A stretch of 64,000 nt of DNA, taken from assembly GCF_009914755.1 (NCBI RefSeq), contig NC_060930.1, one strand, 5' to 3'. The notes beneath the pieces are model-generated. The model saw only the letters and a program-made list of their open reading frames with translations, made no database searches and was not told the origin of the DNA. The stretch's first letter is position 1. Every line of letters begins with the position of its first letter. Source of the DNA: the human T2T-CHM13v2.0 reference genome, Homo sapiens. The position numbers and the translations under genes are program-made. Below, in pieces: positions 4,071 through 26,890 of the stretch.

Positions 4071-4847
4071 GAGCCTTATCAAAATGTTTATTTCTCTAAA
4101 ACATTAAATCTTTTTTGAGTGGCTTGCACCGGAGAAGGACATGAGGGAGGGAGAAGCAATGTCTTTTCAGTCTTTTCAGAGATTTGAGGTTGTTATTTCA
4201 GCTTCCAAACATGATTTTTCACAAATCTGACTTAATAATGCTTGCTACACATTAAACAAACAAAGAGAAACAGTTTCCCCTACAAACTTTCTGATCCGTG
4301 TGGTCTTTTTCTCTGCAAAGTGCTTTTCAGGTCTTTTCATGTAAATACAGATATTAAATCTGTAACAATGTAGATATTTTTCTTGAATCTCCTAATGATC
4401 CTGAGATGTAAGTGGAACAAGTATTTATTGTCATTTTGTAAATAAGCAAACCAAGACCTAGAAACTCCATAGACTAATGGTATTCACACAATTCTTAAGT
4501 GCTACTTCAGAAAACCTAATTCAGTGTTCTTTTCACTTTGCTACAATCTCTGTTTCAAATAATGTTTAAACTTCCCAAACTATGTTTTTATTTAACATTT
4601 CAAAATTGCATCATTCTAGATAGGACTTTATTTCAAAGATTCTACCTAGAGGCAAAGCACCTAGAATAGCATGAACAATATTTAAGAACTACATTCATCA
4701 CTTATTATCTACGTGACCATAGGCAACTCATGCTAAACTTTAGTTTTCTCCACTGAAAAACAACAAGTGGAAATAATACCTTTGTACCAAGGTGATTTGG
4801 ACTATATTTACAAGAGATAAAAGATTTGCACATTATAAAATCCATTA

Positions 4848-4903
4848 ATATATTATTATTATTATTATCATCATCATCATCAACAGCAGCAGCAGCAGCA
4901 GCA
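4848..4903. repeat. Compound (TAT)n(CAT)n(CAG)n microsatellite at the end of a MIR fragment
   Basis: Seen directly: tattattatt...atcatcatc...cagcagcagcagcag. Confidence 0.9.
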
Positions 4904-6203
4904 TCTGGGAAAGATCAGATAATATAGCATCAGGTCCAGTTTTTGTTGGTTATTTTTTTTTCAAGATAACCATTACATCACACCTTTAAATCTTCTATTA
5001 TCCAGAAGGTTTTAAGAGTCAAAGGTAATAGGACTCTAGACTTGGCTTTATCACCAGATAGTATCTTGTCCATCCTAGTGACAGCAAAACTTGACTCTTC
5101 TTCTATTGTATGGGACTCAATTCCACGTGGATGCCAGACAACCTGTTGAGGCCCAAAGGATGTGTTGACATTCTTGATGAATTTTCCTCCATTTTTCATA
5201 TAGGTACATAATTTGCTGCCTCGGTAACATAGTTTGGCAGTGCCATTTTCATCTACTCTTTTTTAAGGAAATCTTTACACTGTACTGTTTCACTTCAATT
5301 CAAATTTTAAATAGAATTTATAACCACAGTTTTGGGTCATAAAATATGGATATATATATATAAGAATTTTTCTTTAAAAATAAAAAAGTAAATTCTGAGG
5401 TTTAAAAATGTATAAAACTACCATAATCACAATGCACAATTACTATGAATTATTTTTCATCCTGGACAGTGAGTGAGAGATAAAGGATGTTATAAGAACT
5501 ATATTAAAATAAGCAACATCTCCAGCCTTATAATCTTTCCATTAGAAGGTCTGGAGATTACCGAATAGTTACTCCAGCATTCTGAACTATGCTAATTATT
5601 ATCACAAGCCATATGGACCCTAAAGTTTCTTAAGTGTGTTAATATATTCAAAATAGAATAATATGTTTTTGGCAAATTTTCACATTCATGAGATATGAAT
5701 TCAAACAGAGCATTGTATTAAAAAGCAGTTTAAAGCAACCATATCTCAAATTATTTTATCAAAATAAAATGGATTTTTGACTTAAAGAAAATACCTATAC
5801 AACAGTCAAATATCTGCATATAATATAGTTAGTAGAAGAAAAAATTTTTCTTGCATACATATAGCAATTAGCATTCAAAACATAATTTTCCTTCTGTTTT
5901 CCTAGCTGGCTGAATTGTACCCAGGAGTAGGTGACTGTGTGATAATGTAAATGACTCAATATATCCTAAATATTTACCATCTAATTTTTAAGATCAGTGA
6001 TTGAAATTGCAGTACAGCACATAACTCAGCTGAAAGAAAGAGACAGAAAGGAAGGGAAGAAGGAGGAAAGGTTGTTTTGGCAACCATGTAATTTTATGTC
6101 AGCATGTGATTTTTCTAAATGTATAGAAATATTTAGTGTATAATTGGTTTTGTGCTTATATTTTTAGTTTACATAAAGGCTAGTTCTTTATATAGCTTGA
6201 TTC

Positions 6204-6430
6204 AGAAAGAAAAAAAGAAAGATAAAGAGAGAGAGAAAGAAGAAAGAGAGAAAGAAAGGAAAAAGAAAAAGAAGGAAGGAAAGAAAGAAAGAGAAAGAAA
6301 GAAAAGGGGAGGGGAGGGAAGGGGAGGGAAGGGGAGGAGGGGAGGAGGAAGGGCGGAAGGAAGGAAGAAAAGAGAGAGAAAAGGAAGGAAGGAAGGAGGG
6401 AGGGACGGAGGGAGGAAGGAAGGAAGGAAG
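6204..6430 (+). repeat. GA-rich polypurine simple repeat (GAAA/GGAA/GGGA)
   Basis: About 225 nt of almost pure purine on the + strand. Confidence 0.95.
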
Positions 6431-6777
6431 GCTGGTTGATTTCGGTGAGATCAGATAATCATTTTGCCACATTTTAGTGACTTAAATTCCCCTGGACTAA
6501 TCCCGAATACTGCAGCAAACTGACTAATTCTGCAGAATACAATAATTTTACAATGACTTAAAAATATATAAAGGTTGATGCCCTTCTGTATTTTTCAAAG
6601 AAATGGTTCTTCTAGATCAAGCATTTTCTTTAGGCTTTAATATAATCTTAAATATAAACAAATATATATCTAAAATGGGAAGCACTGGTTTCACTAACTG
6701 TAGCTCTTCAGAAATTAGCCTTTTTCTGCCTTCCATATTTATGCAGAAAATAAAGGCTTTAAGAATTCATTTATATC

Positions 6778-7081
<304 letters not shown>

Positions 7082-8539
7082 TTAAATCTTAAAAGACAAC
7101 ACAAAGATGTCTCGATGATCGTAGAACCTCCTTTTCCTGCTGTTAGTTTTTCAGACCTCCAGTGATCATTCTAGCTCTAGGGGAGAATAGTACTGCTCAT
7201 ACAACCTGACCCAAATCCTTTGGTTTAGTTCAAAATCGGTGAGCACAAAACAACAGGAATTCTATATTAAATTGAGCTTATACTTGTGTCGTGGTACATT
7301 TTTTAAAGTTTCATGTCAAACTGTGGGATAGAAAAATAGTGCATTAGGTCATCCAGAGGATTTTCACCTCTATCCAATTATTTTCAGCACGGGCTCTATC
7401 AACCTATTTATAGATAATTAGTTAATTATTTATTTTTGTTTTTCTAACATACCATAGTCACACAGTTGAGTGTATATTGGTCTTACTATACTTAAGTCCA
7501 AATTGAAACTTAATAAGGGCAGCATTCTAGAAAAACTATTTGATGATGTAGTTGATTCCATCACCAAGACATACTTCAAACCTAGAAAATCTCTAGTGAA
7601 TATTTTTATGGGCTTTCAGTTCTAAAATGAATATCATTATATGTTTTGATGATTTCCATAAATGAGGGTAAAAAAGTTCCAAATAATGTGACAACTATTA
7701 ACTCCTTCAGATGTCAGGAAATAATTTTTTTAATTATTATAAATTAAAATCTAAATGAATATGATAGCATCTGAGGTGGACTACATGGATAGGAAGAAAT
7801 AAGCTGCTCAATACTCTGTGATGAAAGAACAATTATTTTATCTTTGCCCAAGAAATTATTAATATAATTCCCCTATAATATTCTCCTTAAGTCAGTGTTC
7901 ATTTAATAAGGAAAAAAAAAATCTTACCTATTAGTAGAAATGTTATAGACATGCATTGTGCCCTTGGTAAAGAAATAATAATACCACTCAATTATATGGT
8001 ACATAAAAGTTTAAAAACATTTCACCTACAGGCCGCTCAGCAAGAACATGCATCCCCACTTGGATCAGACTTCCTTTTACAGAAATAAACTTTCATATTA
8101 ATCACAGATCCATGGTTTATCTTTCTATGGGAGACCAATTTAAAACCTACAATTGGTAATTGTATCTCAGTCAGCATCTGGGCAGTGCATTCTCCAGCAT
8201 ATAAATTTTGGAGATTTCTATTTCATATGTGGGACATGTAATTATTAAAAAAAAAATAGGTTAAAAGTTTTCTGACAGATCATGTCTTGGTTAACAATTC
8301 TGCCATGAAGAATATCTCTTAATTCCTCTTTTATTGATTTCATTCTATTTTATAAAAGCTATCAAATAGTTACCTATTCACACTCATTTAATTTGAAAAT
8401 TATTTATGACATATGTTGTTATTGAAACTTCAGAGGAGCCCTCTCTTATTTGGTGGTTCTGGATCAACCATTAGGGTTCAATGTGAGCCAACAGAGTTGT
8501 AGTGGGGGGGGTTTCATTATTGTTTTCACCTTTCTTATT

Positions 8540-15662: not shown

Positions 15663-15944
15663 CAGTCATCCCTCAGTATCTGTGGATATTTGATTCTGAG
15701 ATCCCCATGGATACTAAAATATACAGATATTCAAGTCCCTTATAAACATGATATAATATTTGCATATAACCTGAACACATATTTTCACATACTTTAATGA
15801 TCTCTAGATTACTTATAATACCTAACACAATGTAAATGTTATGTAAATAGTTGTTATACTCTATTGTTTAGGGAATAATGACAAGAAAGAAACGTCTGTA
15901 TGAATTTAGTGCAGACACAATTATCTTTTTTTCTGAATATTTTC
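15663..15944 (+). mobile_element. MER2 (TcMar-Tigger), left part
   Basis: TA-cagtcatccctcagtatc...tctctagattacttataatacctaacacaatgtaaatg...gggaataatgacaagaaa...ttctgaatattttc. Confidence 0.9.
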
Positions 15945-17209
15945 TTTTTTTCCAACCTTTATTGTAGGTTCCTGGGTGGAAGTGCAGGTTTGTTATATGG
16001 GTAAGTTGCAGGTCATGGGGATCTGTTGTACAGATAATTTTATCACCCAGGTAATAAGCATAGTGCCTGATCGGTAGCTTTTTGATCCTCACCTTCCTCC
16101 CACCCTCCACCCACAACTAGGCCGCAGTGTCTATTATTTCTTTCTTTGTGTGAATGTGTACTCAATGTTTAGCTCCCACTAATAAGTGAGAGCATGTAGT
16201 ATTTGGTTTTATGTTCCTGTGTTAATTTGGTTAGGATAATGGCCTCCAGTTTCATTCATGTTTCTGCACAGGACATCGTCTCATTCTTTTTTTATGGTTG
16301 TATAGTAATCCATGGTGTATATATATCAGGTTTTCTTTATCCAGTTCACCATTGATGGGCAATTACATTGATTCCATGTCTTTGCTGTAATGAATAGCAC
16401 TGCAGTGAACATTTGTGTACATGTGTCTTCATGGTAGAATGATTTGTATTCCACTGAAAATAAATCCCAGTAATGGGATTTATGGGTCAAATGGAAATTC
16501 TGTTTTAAGTTCTTTGAGAACCGTCCAATGTGCTTTCCACAGTGGCTGAACTAGTTTACATTCTACCAGCAGTATATAAATATTTCCTTTTCTAGACAAC
16601 CTCGTCAGCATTTTTTTTCTGTTTTGACTTTTTAATAATAGCCATTCTGACTAGTATGAGATGGTATCTCATTGTGATCTTGATTTGCATTCTTTTAATG
16701 ATTAGTGATGTTGAGTATCACTTTATATGCATTTTGGCCATACGTATGTCTTCTTTTAAGCGGTATTTGTTCATGTCTTTTGCCCATTTTTTAATAGAAT
16801 TGTTTGTTTGTTGCTTGTTGATTTGTTTAAGTTTCTTATAGATTCTGGATATTAGATCTTTGTTGGATGCATACTTTGAAAATATTTTTTCCATTCTGTA
16901 GCTTGTCTGCTTACTCTGTTGATAGTTTCTTTTGCTGTGCAGAAGCTCTTTAGTCATTAAAGTCCCATTTGTCAATGTTTGTTTTTGTGACAATTGTTTT
17001 TGGTGTTTTTGTCATGAAATTATTGCCAAGGCATATGCCCAAAATGGTATTCCCTAGGTTTACTTCTAGGATTCTTACAGTTTTAGACTATATATTTAAG
17101 TCTTTAATCAATCTTGAGTTGATTTTTGTATATGGTAAAAGGAAAGAGCCTGGTTTCAATCATTTGCATATGGTTAGCCAGTTTTCCCAGCAACATTTAA
17201 TAAGGAATC

Positions 17210-19515
17210 TGTATTAGTCCATTCTCATGCTGCTGTGAAGAAATACCTGAGACTGGGTAATTTACGAAGGAAATGGGTTTAATTGACTCATAAATCCACA
17301 GGCCTGGAGAGGCCTCAGGAAACGTACAATCATGGCGGAAGGGGAGTCAAACATCATTTTTCACATGGCAGCAGCGGAAGTGCCAAACACAAGGGGGAAA
17401 AGCCATCATATCTTGTGAGAGGTCACTCACTATCACAAGCACAGCATGAGAGTTACCACCCCCACGATTAAATTACCTCCCACCAAGTCCCTCCCATGAC
17501 ATGTGGAGATTGTGGTAACCACAATTCAAGATGAGATTTGGGTGGAGACACAGCCAAACCAAACTATTTCACCCTTGGCCCTTCCCAAATCTCATGTCCT
17601 CACATTTCAAACATAATCATGCCCTTCCAACAGTCCCCCAAAGTCTTAACTCATTCGATCATTAACTCAAAAGTCCAAGTCCAAAGTCTCATCTGACACA
17701 AGGCAAGTCCCTTCCACTTATGAGCCTGTAAAATCACAAGCAAGTTAGTTACTTCCTAGATACAAAGGGGTACAGACATTGGGTAAATACACCCATTCCA
17801 AATGGGAGAAATTGACCAAAACAAAGGCCATGCAACTCCAAAATCCAATAGGGAAGTCACTAAACCTTAAAGTTCCAAAATTATTTCCTTTGATTCCATG
17901 TCACACATCCAGATCACACAGATGCAAGAGGTGGGGTCGCACAGCCTTGGGCAGCTCTGCCCCTGTGGCTTTGCAGGGTAAAGCTCCCCTCCTGGCTGCT
18001 TTCGCAGCCTGGTGTTGAGTGTCTGTGGCTTTTCCAGGTGCACAGTGCAAGCTGTTGGTGGATCTACCATTCTGGGGTCTGGAGGATGGTGGCCTTCTTC
18101 TCACAGCTCCAGTAGGCAGTGCCCCAGTAGGGACTCTGTGCGGGGGCTTGGACCCCACATTTCCCTCCTGCACTCCCCTAGCAGAGGTTCTTAATGAGGG
18201 CTCTGCCCCTGCAGCAAACTTCTGCTTGGACCTCTGGGCATTTCCACACATCTTCTGAAATCTAGGTGGAGGTTCCCAAACATCAATTCTTGACTTCTGT
18301 GTACACACAGGCCCAACAACACATGTAAACCACCAAGGCTTGGGTCTTGCACCCTCTGAAGCAATAGCCTAAGCTGTACTTGGCCCCTTTTAGCCACGGC
18401 TGGATCTGAAGCAGCTGAGACACAAGGCACCATGTCCCAAGGCTGCGTAGAGAAAGGGGGCCTTGGGTCCTGTCCATGAAGCCATTTTTCCCCACAGGCC
18501 TTCAGGCCTGTGATGGGAGGGACTTCTGTGAAAACCCCCAACATTCCCTGGAGACATTTTTCCCATTGTCTTGGTGATTAACGTTCAGCTCATCATTACT
18601 TATGCAAATTTCTGCAGCCAGCTTAAATTTCTGTCTAGAAAATGGGGTTTTATTTTCTGTCATATTGTCAGACTGCAAATTTTTCAATCATTATGCTCTG
18701 CCTCCTCTCGAATGATTTGCCACTTAGAAATTTCTCCTGCCAGATACCCCAAATCATCTCTCTGACGTTCAAAGTTAGATCTCTAGGGCAGGGGCAAAAT
18801 GCTGCCAGTCTCTTCACATAGCAAGAGTGACCTTTATTCCAGTTCAAGAAAAGTTCCTCATCTTCATCTGAGACCACCTCAGCCTGGACATCTTTGTCCA
18901 CATCATTATCTGCATTTTGGTCAAAGCCATTCAACAAGTCTCTAGGAATTTCCAAACTTTCCCACATCTTCCTGTCTTCTAAGCCTTCCAAGTCTCTAGT
19001 AAGTTCCAAACTTTCCCAGATTTGCCTGTCTTCTTCTGAGCCCTCCAAATGGTTCCAACCTCTGCCTGTTACACAGTTCCCAAATTATTTCCACATTTTC
19101 AAGTATCTTTACAGCTGTGCCCCACTCTGTGGTACAAATTTATGGTATTAGTTTGTTCTCATACTATGAAGAAATACCTGAGACTGGGTAATTTATAAAG
19201 GAAAGAGGTTTAATTGACTCACAGTTCCACAGTACTGGGGAGGCCTCAGGAAACTTACAATCATAGTGGAAGGGGAAGCAAACACATTCTTCTTTGCATG
19301 GTGACAGCAAGGAAAAATGTTGAGTAAAATGGGAGAAAGCCACTTATAAAACCATGGGATCTTGTGAGAATTCACTCACTATCATGAGAACAGCATGAGA
19401 GTAACCACCCCCATGATTAAATTACCTCCAACCAAGTCCTTCCCATGACACATGGGGATTATGGGAACTATTACTCAGTATGAGATTTGGGTAGAAACAT
19501 GACCAAACTGTATCA
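17210..19515 (-). mobile_element. Complete THE1 (C/D-like) MaLR element: LTR-internal-LTR
   Basis: LTRs at about 17210-17565 and 19145-19515 (aagaaatacctgagactgggtaattt in both), THE1 internal sequence between them, and a perfect 5-bp TSD GAATC (17205-17209, 19516-19520). Confidence 0.93.
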
Positions 19516-22189
19516 GAATCCATTCCCCATTGCTTGTTTTTGTGACTTGGTTGAAGATTAAATGGCTGTAGGTTAGTGGCTTTATTTCTGTGTTCTATAA
19601 TCTGTTTCATTAGTCTGTTTGATTTTGCATGAATCCATACTCTTTTGTTTACTGTAGCCTTGTAGTGTAGTTTGAAGTCAGATAGTGTAATAGCTTTGTC
19701 TTTTGTTTGTTTGCTTTGGATTTTGTTTTTTGTTTTTGATTTTGATATTTGTTTTTGTTTTTGCTTAGAAGTGCTTTGGCCATTTAGGCTCTTTTTTGGT
19801 TCAGTATGAATTCGAGACTAGTTTTTTTTTTTCTAATTCTGTGAAAAACTGGGAGTTTGATAGGAATAGCATTGAATCTTTAAATTCTTTGGGGCAGTAT
19901 GGCCATTGTAACAATATTGATTCTTCCTGTCCATGTGCATGGGATGTTTTTCTATTTGTTTGTGGTATATCTGATTTCTTTCATCAGTGGTTTTTAAATC
20001 TAGTTGTGGTGATCTTTCAGCTCCCTTGTTAGTACTCTAGGTATTTTATTCTATTTTTTTGTGGCTATCATAAGTGGGACTGTGTTCTTGACATGGCTCT
20101 CAGCTTGGATGCTGTTGGTGTATAGAAATGCTACTGATTTTTGTACACTGATTTTGTATCCTGAAACTTTCCTGAAGTTTTTTTCAAATCTAGGGGCTTT
20201 TGGGCAGAGACTGGGGTTTTGTAGGCATAAAATTATGTCCTTGGCAAAGAGAGATAGGTTGACTTCCTCTCTTCCTATTCGGATGCCTTTTATATTTTAT
20301 CTTGCCTGATTGCTCTGTCTAGGACTTCCAGTACTATGTTAAATAGAATAGACAAGTGGGCATCCTTGTCTTATTCCAGTTCTTAAGGGGAATGTTTCCA
20401 GCTTTTCCCCGTTCAGTATAATGTTGGCTGTGGGTTTCTCATAGATGGCTCTTATTATTTTGAGGTATGTTCCTTCAATGCCTAGTTTCTTGAGGGTTTT
20501 TAATGTAAAGGGATATTTAATTTAATCAAACTCTTTCATGCATCTGTAGAGAAAATCATGTGGTTTTTATTTTTAGTTCTGTTTATGTGATGAATTACAT
20601 TTATTGATTTGCATATGTTGAGCCAACCATGCATTCCAGGTATAAAGCCTACTTGATTGTACTGAATTAGCTTTTTGATGTGCTGTTGGATTCAGTTTGC
20701 TAGTATTCTGTTAAGAAATTTTGCATATATGTTTCTCAGGAATACTGGCCTGAAGTTTTCCTTTTTGGTTGTGACTTTGCCAGGTTTTGGTATCAGAATA
20801 ATGCTGCTTACATAGAATGAGTTAGGGAGGAGTTCCCCTTTCTTAATTTTTGGAATAATTTCAGTAGGCTTAGTACCAGTTATTTTTTATATGTCTGGTA
20901 GAGTTTGGCTCTGAATCCATATGTCCCAGGGATTTTCTGGTTCATCACTAATTCAATTTTAGAACTAGTTATTAGTCCATACAGGGTTTTAATTTCTCAT
21001 TTTTGTAAATTGATTTTGTATCCTGAAACATTACTGAAGTTATTTATCAGATCTATGAGCTTTTAGGAAGAAACTAAGGAGTTTTATAGCTATAAAATCA
21101 TATATTTGGCAAAGATAGATAGTTTAACTTCCTCTCAATCTTGGAAGGTTTAATCTTGGGATTGAATCTTGATTCAGTCTTGAGAGGTTGCATGTTTCCA
21201 GGAATTTATTCATTTCTTCTAGGTTTTCTAGTTTCTGTTCAAAGAAGTGTTTGTAATAGCCTCTGAGGATTTTTTTGTTTTTATTTTTGTTTTTGGTATT
21301 TTTGTGATGATGTCACCTTTATCAATTCTAATTGTTTTTATTTGGATCTTCTTTTTTTTCTTTATCAATTTAGCTAGCAATTTATCAAACTTATTTATTC
21401 TTTGGGAGAAACAACTTTTGGTTTTCTTGATCCGTTATATGTTTTTTCTCATCTTAATTTGATTCAGTTCAGCTCAGCTCTGATTTCAGTTATTCACTTT
21501 TTTCTGATAGCTGTGAAGTACTTTGGTTTGACTTATTTTTCTAGTTCCTCTAGGTGAGATATTAGATTCTTAATTTGAGATACTTCTTAACTTTTTGATA
21601 TGGGCACTTAACACTATAAACTTTCCTCTTAACACTGCCTTAGCTGGGTCCCAGAGATTCTGATATCTTGTATCTTTGTTTTCATTAGTTTCAAATAATT
21701 TATTGATTTCAGACTTAATTTTATTATTTACACAGAAATCATTCAGGAGCTGGTTTTGTAATTTCCATGTAATCCTATGGTTTTGAGTATCTTCTTAGTA
21801 TTGATTTTTATTTTTATTGCACTGTGGTCCAAGACTGTAGTTGGTATAATTTTATTTTTTTTAATTTGTTGAGAACTGTTTTATGGCTGATCATGTGGTT
21901 GATTTTAGGTTATGTGTCACATGCAGAAGACAAGAATATGTATTGTTGTTGTTGGGTGGAGTGTTCTGTAGGTATCTGTTAGGACCATTTGGTCAAGTGT
22001 CAAGTTCATGTCCTAAATATCTTTGTTAGATTTCTGCCTTGATGATCTGTCTAGTATTGTCAGCATGGTGTTGAAGTCTTCTACTATTATTGTGTGGTTA
22101 TCTAAATACCTTTGTAGGTCTCTAAGAACTTGCTTTATGAATCTGGTGCTCCTGTGTTGGGTGCATATACATTTAGGATTGTTAAGTCT

Positions 22190-24047
<1,858 letters not shown>

Positions 24048-25761
24048 TGTTAAGTCTTTTTACATTGAACCCTTTATCATTATGTAATGTCCTTCTTTGT
24101 CTTTTTTGATCATTGTTGTTTCAAAGTCTGTTTTGTTTGAAATTAGTATAGAAACACCTGCTCTTTTTTGTTTTCCATTTGCCAGGTAGATTTTTCTCCA
24201 TCCCTTTAGTTTGAGTCTATGGGCTTCATTGCATGTGACATGAGTCTCTTGAAGACAACATAGAGTTGGGTCTTGGTTCGTTATCCAGCTTGCGACTCTG
24301 TGACTTTTAAGTGGGGCATTTAGCCCATTAATGTTCAAAGTTGGTGTGGATTTGGCCCTGTCATTATTTTTTTAGCTGGTTATTTTGCAGACTTGATTGT
24401 ATATTTGCTTTATGGGGTCAATGGCTTATGTACTTAAGTGTGTTTTTGTGGTAGCTAACAGTGGTCTTTCATTTCCATGTTTAGCACTCCATTATGGACC
24501 TCTTATAAGGCATGTCCAGTGGTAATAAATTTCCTTAGCATTTCTTTGTCTGAAAAAGGTCTGATTTCTCCTTCACTTTTGAAGATTAGTTTGGCTGGAT
24601 GTGAAATTCTTGGTTGGAATTTCTCTTTTTTAAGAATGTTGACTATAGACCCTCAATCTCTTCTAGTTTGTGCTGTTTTTGGTGAAAGGTACACTGTTAG
24701 TCTAATGGAATTCTGTTTGTAGGTGATGTGCCTCTTCTCTCTAACAGCTTTTAATACATTTTTTCTTTAACATGGACCTTGGAGATGACCATGTGTCTTG
24801 AAGATGGTCATCTTGTATAGTATCTCTGCATTTCCTGAATTTGAAAGTCAGCCTCTTTATTGAGGTTGGGGAAATTTTTGTGGACAGTATCCTCAAATAT
24901 GTTTTACAAGTTTCTTGCTTTTTGTTCCTCTATTTCAGGAACATCAATGAGTCCTAAGTTTGGTCTCTTTACATAAACTCACATTTCTTGGAGGTTTTGT
25001 TCATTCTTTTTAATTCTTTGCTTTTTATTCTGACTCGGTTCATTAAAAGAACTGGACTTCAAGCTCTGAGATTCTTTCCTCAACATGTTCTATTCTGTTG
25101 TTAATCCTTCTGATTGTCTAATGAAATTCTTGTAGTGAGCTTTCAATGTATCAGTTCAGTCTGGTTCTTTCTTAAAATTACTATTTAATCTTTCGGCTTT
25201 TGTACTGTTTTACTGGATTTCTTAAATCCCTTGGATTGAGTTTTGAAATTCTCCTGAATCTCGATGATCTTCCTTCTTATTTATATTCTAAATTCTACAC
25301 ATGTTTTTTCAGCCATTTCTGTCTGGTTAAAAACCATTGCTGGGGAAATAGTATGGTCACTTGTAGGTAAGAAGACACTCTGGCTTTTTGAGTTGTCAGC
25401 ATTATTATCTTGTTTCTTTCTTATTGTGGGGTGTGGGGGAGTGGGGCTGATGTTATTTTAATCTTTGAAGTAGCTGTTCTTTCTATAGGGTTTTTGATTT
25501 TATATTTTTTCACGACCTTGATGGGTTAACTGTGTTATAAGGTGGGTTCAGATGACAGGCTTCATTTCTGGAAGAGTGCAGGAGTCCAAGGCTCGGTTCA
25601 GCACTCCTGGGTTACATATTCTAATCCTACAGGGCTGGTACTATGCCCACGGCTTTGTTCTCCGGACACTTGTGGTTAAACACCTGCTGCCCTATAGTGG
25701 CTAGTGTTTTTCTGTTCCACTGGCAACAACATTCCAATAGGGAGGTGTTCCCACTTTTTGC

Positions 25762-26130
25762 TTTAGATTTCTTCCAAGATTATTGAAATGACCTTCAACA
25801 TTCTGGTCTTCTCATTCATTTCTTATAGAAACCATGTTCCTGAAGTTTTTCTGCATCACATCTCTATAGAGAATCTTCTGAGAAAAATTAATCAAATACT
25901 AGTCCTCCTCACCAAAGTTCACTGCCGCAACTTCAAAGTCCACTGAGTCCTCAATGTCCTTGCAGAAGTTCCAGAAATTAGGATCCCTGGGAACCATTTT
26001 GGCAAGTCCCTCCCATGCTTCCTCTGCAAAGAACTGCAGGGCACAGGGCAATGGAGGCTGTGGCAGAACCACTTGGGCCTCCCAAACTGAAGAAGAAGAA
26101 GGAGCAGTGGAAACTGACCAAGCAATAGAA
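25762..26130 (-). pseudogene. Processed (spliced) 5' fragment of a KRAB zinc-finger gene: exon-1 leader + KRAB-A + KRAB-C, fused to L1
   Basis: Minus-strand translation from ATG 25997: MVPRDPNFWNFCKDIE-DSVDFEVAAVNFGEED*YLINFSQKILYRDVMQKNFRNMVSI-RNE*EDQNVEGHFNNLGRNL. This aligns with the KRAB A+C pattern [62 protein letters not shown]. No introns are present. Confidence 0.9.
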
Positions 26131-26241
26131 TTCTGAATATTTTCAATCTGCAATTGGTTGAAACCATAGATGTGGAAACCACAATCTGCAATTGGTTGAA
26201 AAAACAGATATGGAAATCATGGTTACAGAGGGCCAACTCTA
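26131..26241 (+). mobile_element. MER2, right part
   Basis: ttctgaatattttcaatctgcaattggttgaa...acagagggccaactc-ta continues MER2 to its terminus. Confidence 0.85.
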
Positions 26242-26890
26242 CCAAAAGGATATCAGTATGTCAAAGAAATGTCTCCTTTTATATGTTCATTGCAACATTA
26301 TTCACAATAGCCAAGGTATGGAAATAACCAAGGCTCCCATCAAGGATGAATAAATGTAAAACTGTGGCATTTATGTGCAATGTAAAGAACATTAAATTAG
26401 CCTTTAAAAAGAGTAAAATTCTGTCATTTCCAACAACATGGATGAACCTGAAGGACATTATATTAAGGTAAATATACAGTGTGCAGAAAGACAAGTACTG
26501 CATGATCTCACTTGTCTGTGAAATCTTAAAATGTTGAGTCATGAAAGTATAAAGTAGAATAGTAGTTAACAGAAGTGGTGATGGGGAGTGAATGGAAGGC
26601 ACAGACAGAGAAAGGGGGCAAAGGTTCAGTTAGAAGAAAAAATTTCTAGTGATCTATTGCATAGCTGGTGACTATAGTTAATAATAATATATTACATATT
26701 TTAAACTTGTGAAAAGAGTAGATTGTAAATATTCTCACCACAAAAAACGATGGATATTTGAGGTGACAGATATGTTAATTCACCTAACTTGATCAATCTA
26801 CAATGTATGTGTTATTTCAATATCACATTGTACCCCATAAATATATATAATTATTATCTGTCAAATAAAATCAAGCAATTAAAAAAAAAA
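26242..26890 (+). mobile_element. L1MA 3' end (continuation of 14040-15662)
   Basis: ccaaaagga...atgttcattgcaacattattcacaatagcc...3'UTR and poly(A) at 26881-26890. Confidence 0.88.

What the first reader, a model, noticed from the sequence alone, without database searches (positions are those of the whole stretch)
15931..26144. KRAB-ZNF/L1 chimeric retroelement: spliced KRAB exons fused to a near full-length L1 and mobilised as one unit
Seen: a perfect 14-bp TSD (ttctgaatattttc, 15931-15944 and 26131-26144) encloses a minus-strand insertion. It comprises a 181-nt leader (26130-25950, in-frame AAAATGG at 25997), a KRAB-A segment of exactly 127 nt (25949-25823), and a KRAB-C segment of 61 nt (25822-25762, ending AGAAATCTAAA). 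L1 5'UTR, ORF1, ORF2 and poly(A) follow immediately. Established: KRAB A+C genes (ZNF14/20/124/669/670-type) encode these boxes in 127- and 61-nt exons upstream of the zinc-finger exon, so KRAB similarity stops at an exon boundary. Inference: a sense L1 in the last intron of a KRAB-ZNF gene was transcribed from the ZNF promoter. Exons 1-3 spliced into the L1 5'UTR in place of the finger exon, and the hybrid RNA retrotransposed (spliced 5' transduction). An L1 would thus have captured the promoter and repressor domain of the family that silences it. The KRAB frame coincides with the L1 ORF1 start frame (25424), but stops now intervene, so a KRAB-ORF1 fusion is unproven.
Basis: partly seen in the sequence, partly recalled or inferred. 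Interest (0 to 1): 0.9.

Follow-up and report, generated by a model that had tools for sequence, protein, structure and literature searches.

The report
Zinc-finger exons fused to old L1
An ancient L1 jumping-gene copy carried the first three spliced exons of a KRAB zinc-finger gene with it when it inserted, which is a rare but already described kind of event, and this copy left no descendants.

Summary
A perfect 14-bp target-site duplication (26144-26131 and 15944-15931) brackets one minus-strand insertion of 10,186 bp. Related copies of the older repeat that was hit carry that 14-mer once, so the duplication is real.

The 5' 369 nt are spliced exons of a KRAB zinc-finger gene of the 19p13.2/1q44 type. 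They comprise an exon-1-like leader, a 127-nt KRAB-A exon (Pfam KRAB, 1.4e-11) and the 61-nt exon that follows it.

After 14 nt of unassigned sequence comes an old L1. It lacks at least 900 nt of its family's 5'UTR but keeps ORF1, ORF2, the 3'UTR, AATAAA and a short A tail. About 4.2 kb of the 10.2 kb are later nested insertions.

The zinc-finger homology stops at the exon-3 donor, within 1 nt. That favours a spliced gene/L1 hybrid RNA that retrotransposed once. This class is in print: Law and Burns 2026 list 17 human cases, including ZNF681/L1. This locus is not among them.

I found no parent gene, no donor L1 and no sibling copy. The acceptor is not shown to lie inside the L1. Nothing supports capture of a promoter or a working KRAB-ORF1 fusion. 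Verdict: a new member of a known kind, of modest interest.

The parts
26131..26144 (-). 5' target-site duplication (gaaaatattcagaa), preceded by tt: cleavage site TT/GAAA
   Evidence: Identical to 15931-15944. Single copy in 7 of 7 paralogous repeat copies.
25950..26130 (-). Zinc-finger gene leader (exon-1-like 5'UTR, 181 nt). It has an ATG at 25997 in the KRAB frame. The family's usual start codion position just before the KRAB-A exon is not an ATG here.
   Evidence: Homology to the 5' ends of processed pseudogenes at C5:164.39M and C2:203.54M and to C15:74423061 (81% over 96 nt).
25823..25949 (-). KRAB-A exon, 127 nt, with one in-frame stop
   Evidence: Pfam KRAB 1.4e-11. PDB KRAB domain 1v65, E 2.6e-5. 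18 of 19 family loci have ag|127|gt; ours is ungapped at 85-96 of 127 identical.
25762..25822 (-). It is joined to KRAB-A without an intron and ends at the donor position.
   Evidence: Genome hits to this exon stop at 25763/25764.
25748..25761 (-). 14 nt of unassigned junction sequence (GCAAAAAGTGGGAA)
   Evidence: Not significantly like exon-4 starts (862/1000 shuffles) or the L1 sequence upstream of the break (101/1000). 9 of 14 match the TSD (19/1000, post hoc).
25425..25747 (-). Last ~320 nt of the L1 5'UTR. The L1 is cut off inside its 5'UTR.
   Evidence: All 11 relatives align from 25734-25751 onward. Relatives share 900-1,000 nt more upstream. Alignment with 31 relatives.
24400..25424 (-). 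L1 ORF1 remnant. The start codon position is ATA at 25424-25422. Frameshifts and stops are present. The 3' limit is approximate.
   Evidence: Pfam Transposase_22 2.3e-13 and Tnp_22_dsRBD 2.4e-22. ATG in 6 of 9 relatives at the start column.
24055..24371 (-). L1 ORF2, endonuclease part
   Evidence: Pfam Exo_endo_phos 3.5e-8. Limits.
22198..24054 (-). Later nested insertion: a younger L1 3' piece that itself carries an Alu-like insert. Not part of the original chimera.
   Evidence: 86-89% identity to another L1 copy versus 70-75% for the host L1. Alu-type ORF strings.
19516..22197 (-). L1 ORF2, end of endonuclease and reverse transcriptase
   Evidence: 20886-20536 matches human LINE-1 ORF2p structures (8uw3, 8c8j and others) at E 8e-46, residues 496-601. 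Limits.
17204..19515 (.). Later nested LTR-type element, ~2.3 kb, with direct terminal repeats at 17233-17559 and 19164-19508. Not part of the original chimera.
   Evidence: 82-87% ungapped. (61 mismatches in 368 aligned columns).
15952..17203 (-). L1 ORF2 3' end and 3'UTR, with AATAAA at 15963-15958
15945..15951 (-). Remnant poly(A) tail (A7)
15931..15944 (-). 3' target-site duplication

Best explanation
A hybrid RNA was reverse-transcribed into an older repeat in a single L1 target-primed event. The RNA began in exon 1 of a KRAB zinc-finger gene of the 19p13.2/1q44 family. It ran through correctly spliced exons 2 (KRAB-A) and 3, then, instead of the zinc-finger exon, continued into an L1 that had lost most of its 5'UTR.

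The hybrid RNA most likely arose by splicing from the exon-3 donor. The splice could have been in cis, to an acceptor in or just upstream of a sense L1 in the gene, or in trans to an L1 transcript. The L1 proteins translated from that RNA then copied it in cis.

Shown: one insertion, a real TSD, spliced exons, the end of zinc-finger homology at the donor, an L1 cut inside its 5'UTR, and an L1 of full coding length. Inferred: that the join was made by splicing, where the acceptor lay, and that the zinc-finger promoter drove the RNA.

The copy is roughly 60 million years old. It is now riddled with stops and has no descendants in this genome.
For: - Single event: a perfect 14-bp TSD sits at the outer ends. 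The 14-mer is single in 7 of 7 paralogous copies of the target repeat, and 4 of 7 run straight across both flanks. The site has TT/GAAA, AATAAA and an A tail.
- Spliced exons: Pfam KRAB 1.4e-11. The 127-nt and 61-nt exons are joined exactly where 18 of 19 and 7 of 9 intron-containing family loci have ag|...|gt.
- End at the donor: genome hits to exon 3 end at 25763/25764. Processed pseudogenes of the family on C2 and C5 continue at that point into zinc fingers, whereas ours does not. The next 14 nt are not exon-4-like.
- L1: all 11 relatives align from 25734-25751 through ORF1 into ORF2, and their 5'UTR goes on 900-1,000 nt further upstream. ORF1, EN and RT are identified.
- AG dinucleotides lie just upstream of the break in the alignment of 31 relatives: GAAG|TGC, and CCAG|CACC in copies where a CpG has decayed.
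- Precedent: Law and Burns 2026 (PMC13174262; passages, Table S5 read in full) describe 17 such insertions. 15 are in sense orientation, most have an L1 longer than 5 kb, and 6 end exactly at splice donors. In 4, short unassigned sequence at the junction left the donor undetermined. One source L1 has its acceptor 15 bp upstream of the L1.
Against: - The 14 nt between exon 3 and the first clear L1 base are unexplained, so no acceptor can be named.
- No parent gene was found. The best matches to the KRAB exons are 75-81% identical and are spread over many family members.
- None of the 19 family loci examined has a sense L1 between exon 3 and exon 4. One has an antisense L1 after exon 3 and one has a sense L1 piece beyond the start of exon 4.
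- A perfect 14/14 TSD is somewhat lucky for a copy whose L1 differs by about 23% from its relatives.
- Whether the two parts arrived together at the orthologous site in other species could not be checked here.
Confidence: 0.68

Rival explanations
1. Template switch during reverse transcription. The L1 reverse transcriptase was copying an L1 RNA at the target. It left that template about 320 nt before ORF1, added or copied a few stray bases (the 14 nt), jumped onto a zinc-finger mRNA, and ran to its 5' end. This is how U6/L1 and other chimeric retrocopies are thought to form.
For: There are 14 unassigned nt at the junction, and no acceptor can be named. No donor L1 was found in 19 family loci. 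No parent gene was found. Chimeras made by template switching are well documented (search listing; Law and Burns passages).
Against: The zinc-finger part ends at the exon-3 donor within 1 nt. A random landing point on an mRNA of a few kb would do that about once in a thousand. The L1 keeps its full coding length and the partner is in sense orientation starting in exon 1. [quoted passage not shown]
Confidence: 0.2
2. Two separate events. A 5'-truncated L1 inserted first, and a zinc-finger gene fragment later landed exactly at its 5' edge (or the reverse order).
For: The 14 nt between the two parts match the TSD at 9 of 14 positions (19 of 1000 shuffles reach this, post hoc, one of three comparisons tried). 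That could be read as a decayed inner TSD.
Against: The perfect TSD pair encloses both parts. The zinc-finger piece has no poly(A) at its 3' end and lacks the 3' part of its mRNA, the opposite of what retrocopies keep. An inner TSD with 5 of 14 changes next to two outer copies with none is unlikely.
Confidence: 0.04
3. Founder or member of an L1 lineage that adopted zinc-finger exons as a new 5'UTR and spread.
For: L1 families are known to swap 5'UTRs. Law and Burns speculate that chimeric insertions drive this (section 22).
Against: No other place in the T2T genome spans the junction. One search gave 37 other hits, of which 26 were zinc-finger-only ending by query base 372 and 11 were L1-only starting at base 380 or later. 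One search gave 2 other hits, both exon 3 only. The two loci that looked like siblings (C5:164.39M, C2:203.54M) are ordinary processed pseudogenes that continue into zinc fingers.
Confidence: 0.02

Closest known systems
mRNA/LINE-1 chimeric insertions by 5' transduction (Law and Burns, Cell Genomics 2026, PMC13174262): 17 human cases including ZNF681/L1, CREM/L1PB1, MAP3K13/L1PA5, FHIT/L1PA4 and RAP1GDS1/L1PA2
   Same: The TSD encloses both parts, with an endonuclease-type site and an A tail. The first exons of a gene lie in sense orientation to an L1 of coding length, and the gene part ends at a splice donor. Some listed cases also have short unassigned sequence at the junction. As for 15 of their 17 cases, no donor L1 is found in the gene. 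One of their cases also involves a KRAB zinc-finger gene (ZNF681, exon 1 only).
   Different: This locus is not in their Table S5 (all 17 rows read). It carries three exons including protein-coding KRAB sequence. The L1 is broken about 320 nt before ORF1 rather than near its 5' end. The event appears older, with L1 copies about 23% apart, and no parent gene can be assigned.
SVA_F1 / MAST2-SVA: a gene's first exon spliced into an SVA and spread as a subfamily (papers seen only as search listing; the details are recalled)
   Same: A host exon is joined by splicing to a retroelement and is mobilised with it.
   Different: SVA is non-autonomous and the MAST2 form multiplied. Here the element is an L1 and there is a single copy.
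U6/L1 and other template-switch chimeric retrocopies (search listing)
   Same: There are two RNA-derived parts inside one TSD.
   Different: In those chimeras the partner is usually a small RNA and the L1 is strongly truncated. Here the partner ends at a splice donor and the L1 keeps both ORFs.
Spliced integrated retrotransposed elements, SpIREs (PMC5860796; abstract start only)
   Same: Splicing that involves the L1 5'UTR is recorded in a retrotransposed copy.
   Different: SpIREs are spliced within the L1. Here the donor belongs to a host gene.

Membership tests
mRNA/LINE-1 5'-transduction chimera (Law and Burns 2026) | One TSD encloses the non-L1 part and the L1 | tested here: met
   14 of 14 identical at the outer ends. 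Single copy in paralogous empty sites.
mRNA/LINE-1 5'-transduction chimera (Law and Burns 2026) | L1 endonuclease-type cleavage site and poly(A) tail | tested here: met
   TT/GAAA, the same site as two rows of their Table S5. AATAAA plus A7.
mRNA/LINE-1 5'-transduction chimera (Law and Burns 2026) | The non-L1 part maps to the first exons of a gene, in sense orientation to the L1 | tested here: met
   Met by homology to a gene family, not to one parent gene: leader, KRAB-A and the 61-nt exon.
mRNA/LINE-1 5'-transduction chimera (Law and Burns 2026) | The gene part ends at a splice donor | tested here: met
   It ends at the exon-3 donor position, within 1 nt. The next 14 nt are not exon-4-like.
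mRNA/LINE-1 5'-transduction chimera (Law and Burns 2026) | Splice acceptor at the L1 side of the junction | tested here: inconclusive
   AG dinucleotides occur in relatives just upstream of the break, but 14 unassigned nt intervene.
mRNA/LINE-1 5'-transduction chimera (Law and Burns 2026) | Both parts arrive at the same time in a multi-species alignment | not testable with these tools
   Only the human genome is held.
KRAB domain (Pfam PF01352) | Score above the curated cut-off | tested here: met
   44.3 bits against 20.4, profile positions 1-41 of 42.
Template-switch chimeric retrocopy (U6/L1 type) | Junction at an arbitrary point of the partner RNA or at its 3' end; L1 usually strongly truncated | tested here: not met
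   The junction is at an exon-intron boundary, and the L1 keeps ORF1 and ORF2.
Propagating L1 subfamily with a captured 5' end | Several copies with the same junction and different TSDs | tested here: not met
   0 of 37 other hits and 0 of 2 other hits span the junction.

The most novel reading that the evidence does not exclude
This would be a fossil of an attempted 5'UTR replacement. An L1 that had lost its own promoter was rescued about 60 million years ago by the promoter-proximal exons of a KRAB zinc-finger gene, a member of the gene class that represses retroelements. When new, it could have encoded a KRAB-tagged product or carried zinc-finger-gene regulatory sites. That would make it direct evidence that exon capture feeds L1 5'UTR turnover.
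Probability: 0.05. Interest if true: 0.6.

Novelty: new member of a known kind. Interest (0 to 1): 0.3.

Why it matters
It adds an uncatalogued and apparently older example to the short list of L1 copies that carried spliced host exons at their 5' end. Three features set it apart. The L1 had lost most of its own 5'UTR, so an outside promoter was probably needed for it to move. The captured piece includes coding exons. The host gene belongs to the KRAB zinc-finger class. It shows that this route operated before the L1PA era. It does not show that L1 gained a lasting new 5' end this way, because the copy has no descendants.

Tried and rejected
- Sibling copies: C5:164.39M looked like one, with the zinc-finger part followed by a same-sense L1 2.8 kb downstream. 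The alignment showed that the zinc-finger part continues into finger repeats and that the L1 is a separate truncated insertion. C2:203.54M is likewise a processed pseudogene.
- Exon-4 origin of the 14 nt: by eye there was some likeness to the C1 gene's exon-4 start. An anchored alignment against 17 distinct exon-4 starts scored no better than 862 of 1000 shuffles. My choice of acceptor was ambiguous in a few loci.
- L1 origin of the 14 nt: 101 of 1000 shuffles reached the score. A micro-inversion of a near-palindromic L1 octamer would fit, but this is over-fitting and I do not claim it.
- Donor L1 in family introns: none in sense orientation between exon 3 and exon 4 in 19 loci.
- Pfam on long read-through translations of ORF2 and on six short ORF2 pieces gave nothing at E 0.01 or lower. 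The RT was instead confirmed against solved ORF2p structures.
- Naming the L1 subfamily: no repeat library is on hand. 'L1PB/L1MA-like' rests on my recollection of 3'-end sequences and on the divergence, not on a test.
- Earlier findings of this scan were not open to the session.
- timed out and was rerun with fewer shuffles.
- One search's exon-3 script failed on 5 of 9 loci.
Full report
**What is there**

On the minus strand the window reads ...cagatt gaaaatattcagaa | ttctattgcttgg... at 26144-26131/26130. At the far end it reads ...acaataaaggttggaaaaaaa | gaaaatattcagaa aaaaagataa... at 15945/15944-15931. The 14-mer is identical at both ends and is preceded by tt, giving a TT/GAAA site. Law and Burns list the same site type for two of their L1 chimeras.

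I tested the duplication without relying on chance arguments. The flanks belong to an older interspersed repeat (40 matches scored of 85 candidates). I fetched seven paralogous copies. All seven carry the 14-mer, or a close version, once. Four of them (L062-L065) align to both of our flanks as one continuous sequence. The 10,186 bp from 26130 to 15945 are therefore an insertion, and the 14-mer was duplicated when it went in.

**The zinc-finger part**

Translation of 25949-25762 gives DSVDFEVAAVNFGEED*YLINFSQKILYRDVMQKNFRNMVSIRNE*EDQNVEGHFNNLGRNL. With X at the two stops it matches Pfam KRAB at 1.4e-11, 44.3 bits against a cut-off of 20.4. It also matches a solved KRAB domain (1v65, 2.6e-5).

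A search of the whole T2T genome with 26130-25650 gave 38 matches:
- the locus itself;
- 26 matches to the zinc-finger part only. Most are KRAB-A exons in the chromosome 19 cluster at 11.9-12.7 Mb and a gene at C1:246.47 Mb, at 70-79% identity. The rest include two contiguous (intron-less) copies on C2 and C5 and leader-only pieces on C15 and C10;
- 11 matches to the L1 part only.

In 18 of 19 intron-containing loci the KRAB-A exon is ag|127 nt|gt. Ours aligns to them without a gap, with 85-96 of 127 bases identical. The next exon is ag|61 nt|gt in 7 of the 9 loci where I could find it. One locus has 49 nt and one lacks the GT (read after shifting the printed bars by 1 nt). The script confirmed only 4 because it failed on the others.

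In our sequence the two exons abut exactly at 25823/25822. The second ends at 25762, or at 25761 if one A is an insertion.

The 181-nt leader aligns with the 5' ends of the C5 and C2 copies and with a fragment on C15, 81% over 96 nt. Those copies extend some 20 nt further 5'. Our RNA therefore began inside exon 1, as expected for a transcript from a zinc-finger gene promoter.

**Not siblings**

The C5 and C2 loci at first looked like further copies of the chimera. Both continue past the 61-nt exon into ordinary zinc-finger repeats, so they are processed pseudogenes of related genes.

A second, junction-centred search (25835-25690) found only the locus itself and two exon-3 hits that stop at the exon end. 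No hit bridges query bases 372-380. The chimera is a single copy in this genome.

**The L1 part**

Eleven relatives fetched from the genome all align with ours from 25734-25751 onward, at 65-75% identity, through ORF1 into ORF2. Among themselves they share a further 900-1,000 nt upstream (1,061-nt and ~750-nt alignments). Our L1 is therefore cut inside its 5'UTR, about 320 nt before ORF1.

Evidence for the L1 coding regions:
- ORF1: Pfam Transposase_22 (2.3e-13) and its dsRBD-like domain (2.4e-22).
- Endonuclease: Exo_endo_phos, 3.5e-8.
- Reverse transcriptase: 20886-20536 matches solved human ORF2p at 8e-46.
- ORF1 start: ATG in 6 of 9 relatives, ATA in ours at 25424-25422.

Two stretches are later insertions:
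- A younger L1 3' piece with an Alu-like insert at about 22198-24054. It is 86-89% identical to another copy, against 70-75% for the host L1.
- A 2.3-kb element with terminal direct repeats at 17233-17559 and 19164-19508.

Without them and the 383 nt of zinc-finger exons plus filler, the L1 is about 5.6 kb.

**The junction**

Between the end of exon 3 and the first base that clearly aligns with 31 L1 relatives (25747, CACC...) lie 14 nt, GCAAAAAGTGGGAA. I compared them with three candidates:
- the first 24 nt of exon 4 in 17 distinct family sequences: 862 of 1000 shuffles did as well;
- the L1 sequence just upstream of the break in 31 relatives: 101 of 1000;
- the TSD: 9 of 14 identical, reached by 19 of 1000 shuffles.

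None of these stands after allowing for three post hoc tries. The origin of the 14 nt is open.

In the relatives the L1 just upstream of the break reads ...GAAG TGCTTTTGC(C/T)(A/G)G CACC... There is an AG 16-17 nt upstream of the break. In copies where a CpG has decayed there is also a pyrimidine-rich CCAG directly at the break. This is suggestive but no more than that.

**How it most likely arose**

The zinc-finger part starts in exon 1, is correctly spliced twice, and stops at the next donor. The L1 is in sense orientation and has full coding length. A reverse transcriptase jumping at random onto an mRNA of a few kb would land within a base of that donor about once in a thousand.

I therefore favour a spliced hybrid RNA (0.68). 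It could have formed by cis-splicing to an acceptor in or just upstream of a sense L1 in the gene, or by trans-splicing. It was then copied in cis by its own L1 proteins.

The 14 nt could be intron sequence between a cryptic acceptor and a 5'-truncated source L1. Law and Burns document exactly that layout for RAP1GDS1, where the acceptor lies 15 bp upstream of the L1. For our locus this is inference.

A template switch remains possible (0.2). Two separate insertions (0.04) or a spreading lineage (0.02) are unlikely.

Against the cis model, none of the 19 family loci examined has a sense L1 between exons 3 and 4, and no parent gene stands out. Law and Burns likewise found no intronic L1 for 15 of their 17 cases.

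**Age**

Over about 1.6 kb, ours differs from 10 relatives by 23.2% on average (range 20-26%). The relatives differ from each other by 22.2% (45 pairs). The Jukes-Cantor distance is 0.28, or about 0.14 per lineage. At 2.2e-9 per site per year (a recalled rate) that is roughly 60 million years. The figure is inflated to an unknown degree by subfamily differences and CpG decay.

The nested LTR element's two repeats differ at 61 of 368 aligned columns. That gives roughly 40 million years as a lower bound for the host.

**Claims that do not hold**

- Promoter capture: only transcribed exons were carried, so nothing shows capture of the promoter.
- KRAB-ORF1 fusion: the KRAB frame and the ORF1 start are in the same frame today (525 nt apart). 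But there are 2 stops in the KRAB exons and 6 between the junction and ORF1. Each of 9 relatives also has 1-14 in-frame stops in the 110 codons before ORF1. The frame match is a one-in-three coincidence in a sequence that has had indels for tens of millions of years.

**Comparison with what is in print**

Law and Burns (Cell Genomics 2026, PMC13174262) describe 17 human L1 insertions with 5' exons of mRNAs or lncRNAs. I read the outline, the passages found by term search, sections 22 and 23, and all three parts of Table S5 with long cells cut. Their other tables I checked only by term search, and their PDF supplements not at all.

The 17 cases include ZNF681 exon 1 with an L1 at hg38 chr3:94.44M and CREM with an L1PB1. 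None of the 17 rows is at our locus; the two chr6 rows are at 10.2 and 105.2 Mb.

Searches of the paper library with KRAB, LINE-1, chimeric, transduction and splice donor, and with chimeric retrogenes, turned up no report of this locus. Subscription journals are not covered by that library.

The finding is therefore a new member of a known kind.

Noticed in passing
window 17204-19515: A ~2.3-kb element with terminal direct repeats (17233-17559 and 19164-19508; 61 mismatches in 368 aligned columns) is nested in the L1's ORF2. From recall it looks like a MaLR (THE1/MST-type) LTR element. That name was not tested.
   Followed up: partly
window 22198-24054: A younger L1 3' fragment lies in the same orientation as the host L1 and itself carries an Alu-like insert (about 22864-23160). 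It is nested just after the endonuclease domain.
   Followed up: partly
window 26131-26290 and 15800-15930: The target is an older interspersed repeat with dozens of copies in the genome (Tigger-like from recall, not tested). Just upstream of the insertion, the motif caaccaattgcagatt occurs twice, 37 bases apart.
   Followed up: partly
window 25748-25761: The 14 unassigned junction bases match the TSD at 9 of 14 positions (19 of 1000 shuffles). No mechanism I know predicts a TSD-like filler between a transduced part and the L1.
   Followed up: partly
L010 (C2:203535000-203544999), about 9030-8300 minus strand; L009 (C5:164383000-164392999), about 8940-7300 minus strand: Two decayed processed pseudogenes of the same zinc-finger gene family, each with leader, KRAB-A, the 61-nt exon and zinc fingers in one piece.
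   Followed up: yes
L008 (C15:74421561-74424653), 1501-1593: An isolated piece 81% identical to the first 96 nt of the leader ends at ...CCTGCAG|GT and is followed by an Alu. It may be a stranded exon 1 or a pseudogene stump.
   Followed up: no
L025 (C19:12129033-12137463), 4128-8363: One chromosome 19 family locus has a 49-nt version of the 61-nt exon. It also has a long antisense L1 of a similar family downstream of that exon. No exon 4 was found within 8.4 kb.
   Followed up: no
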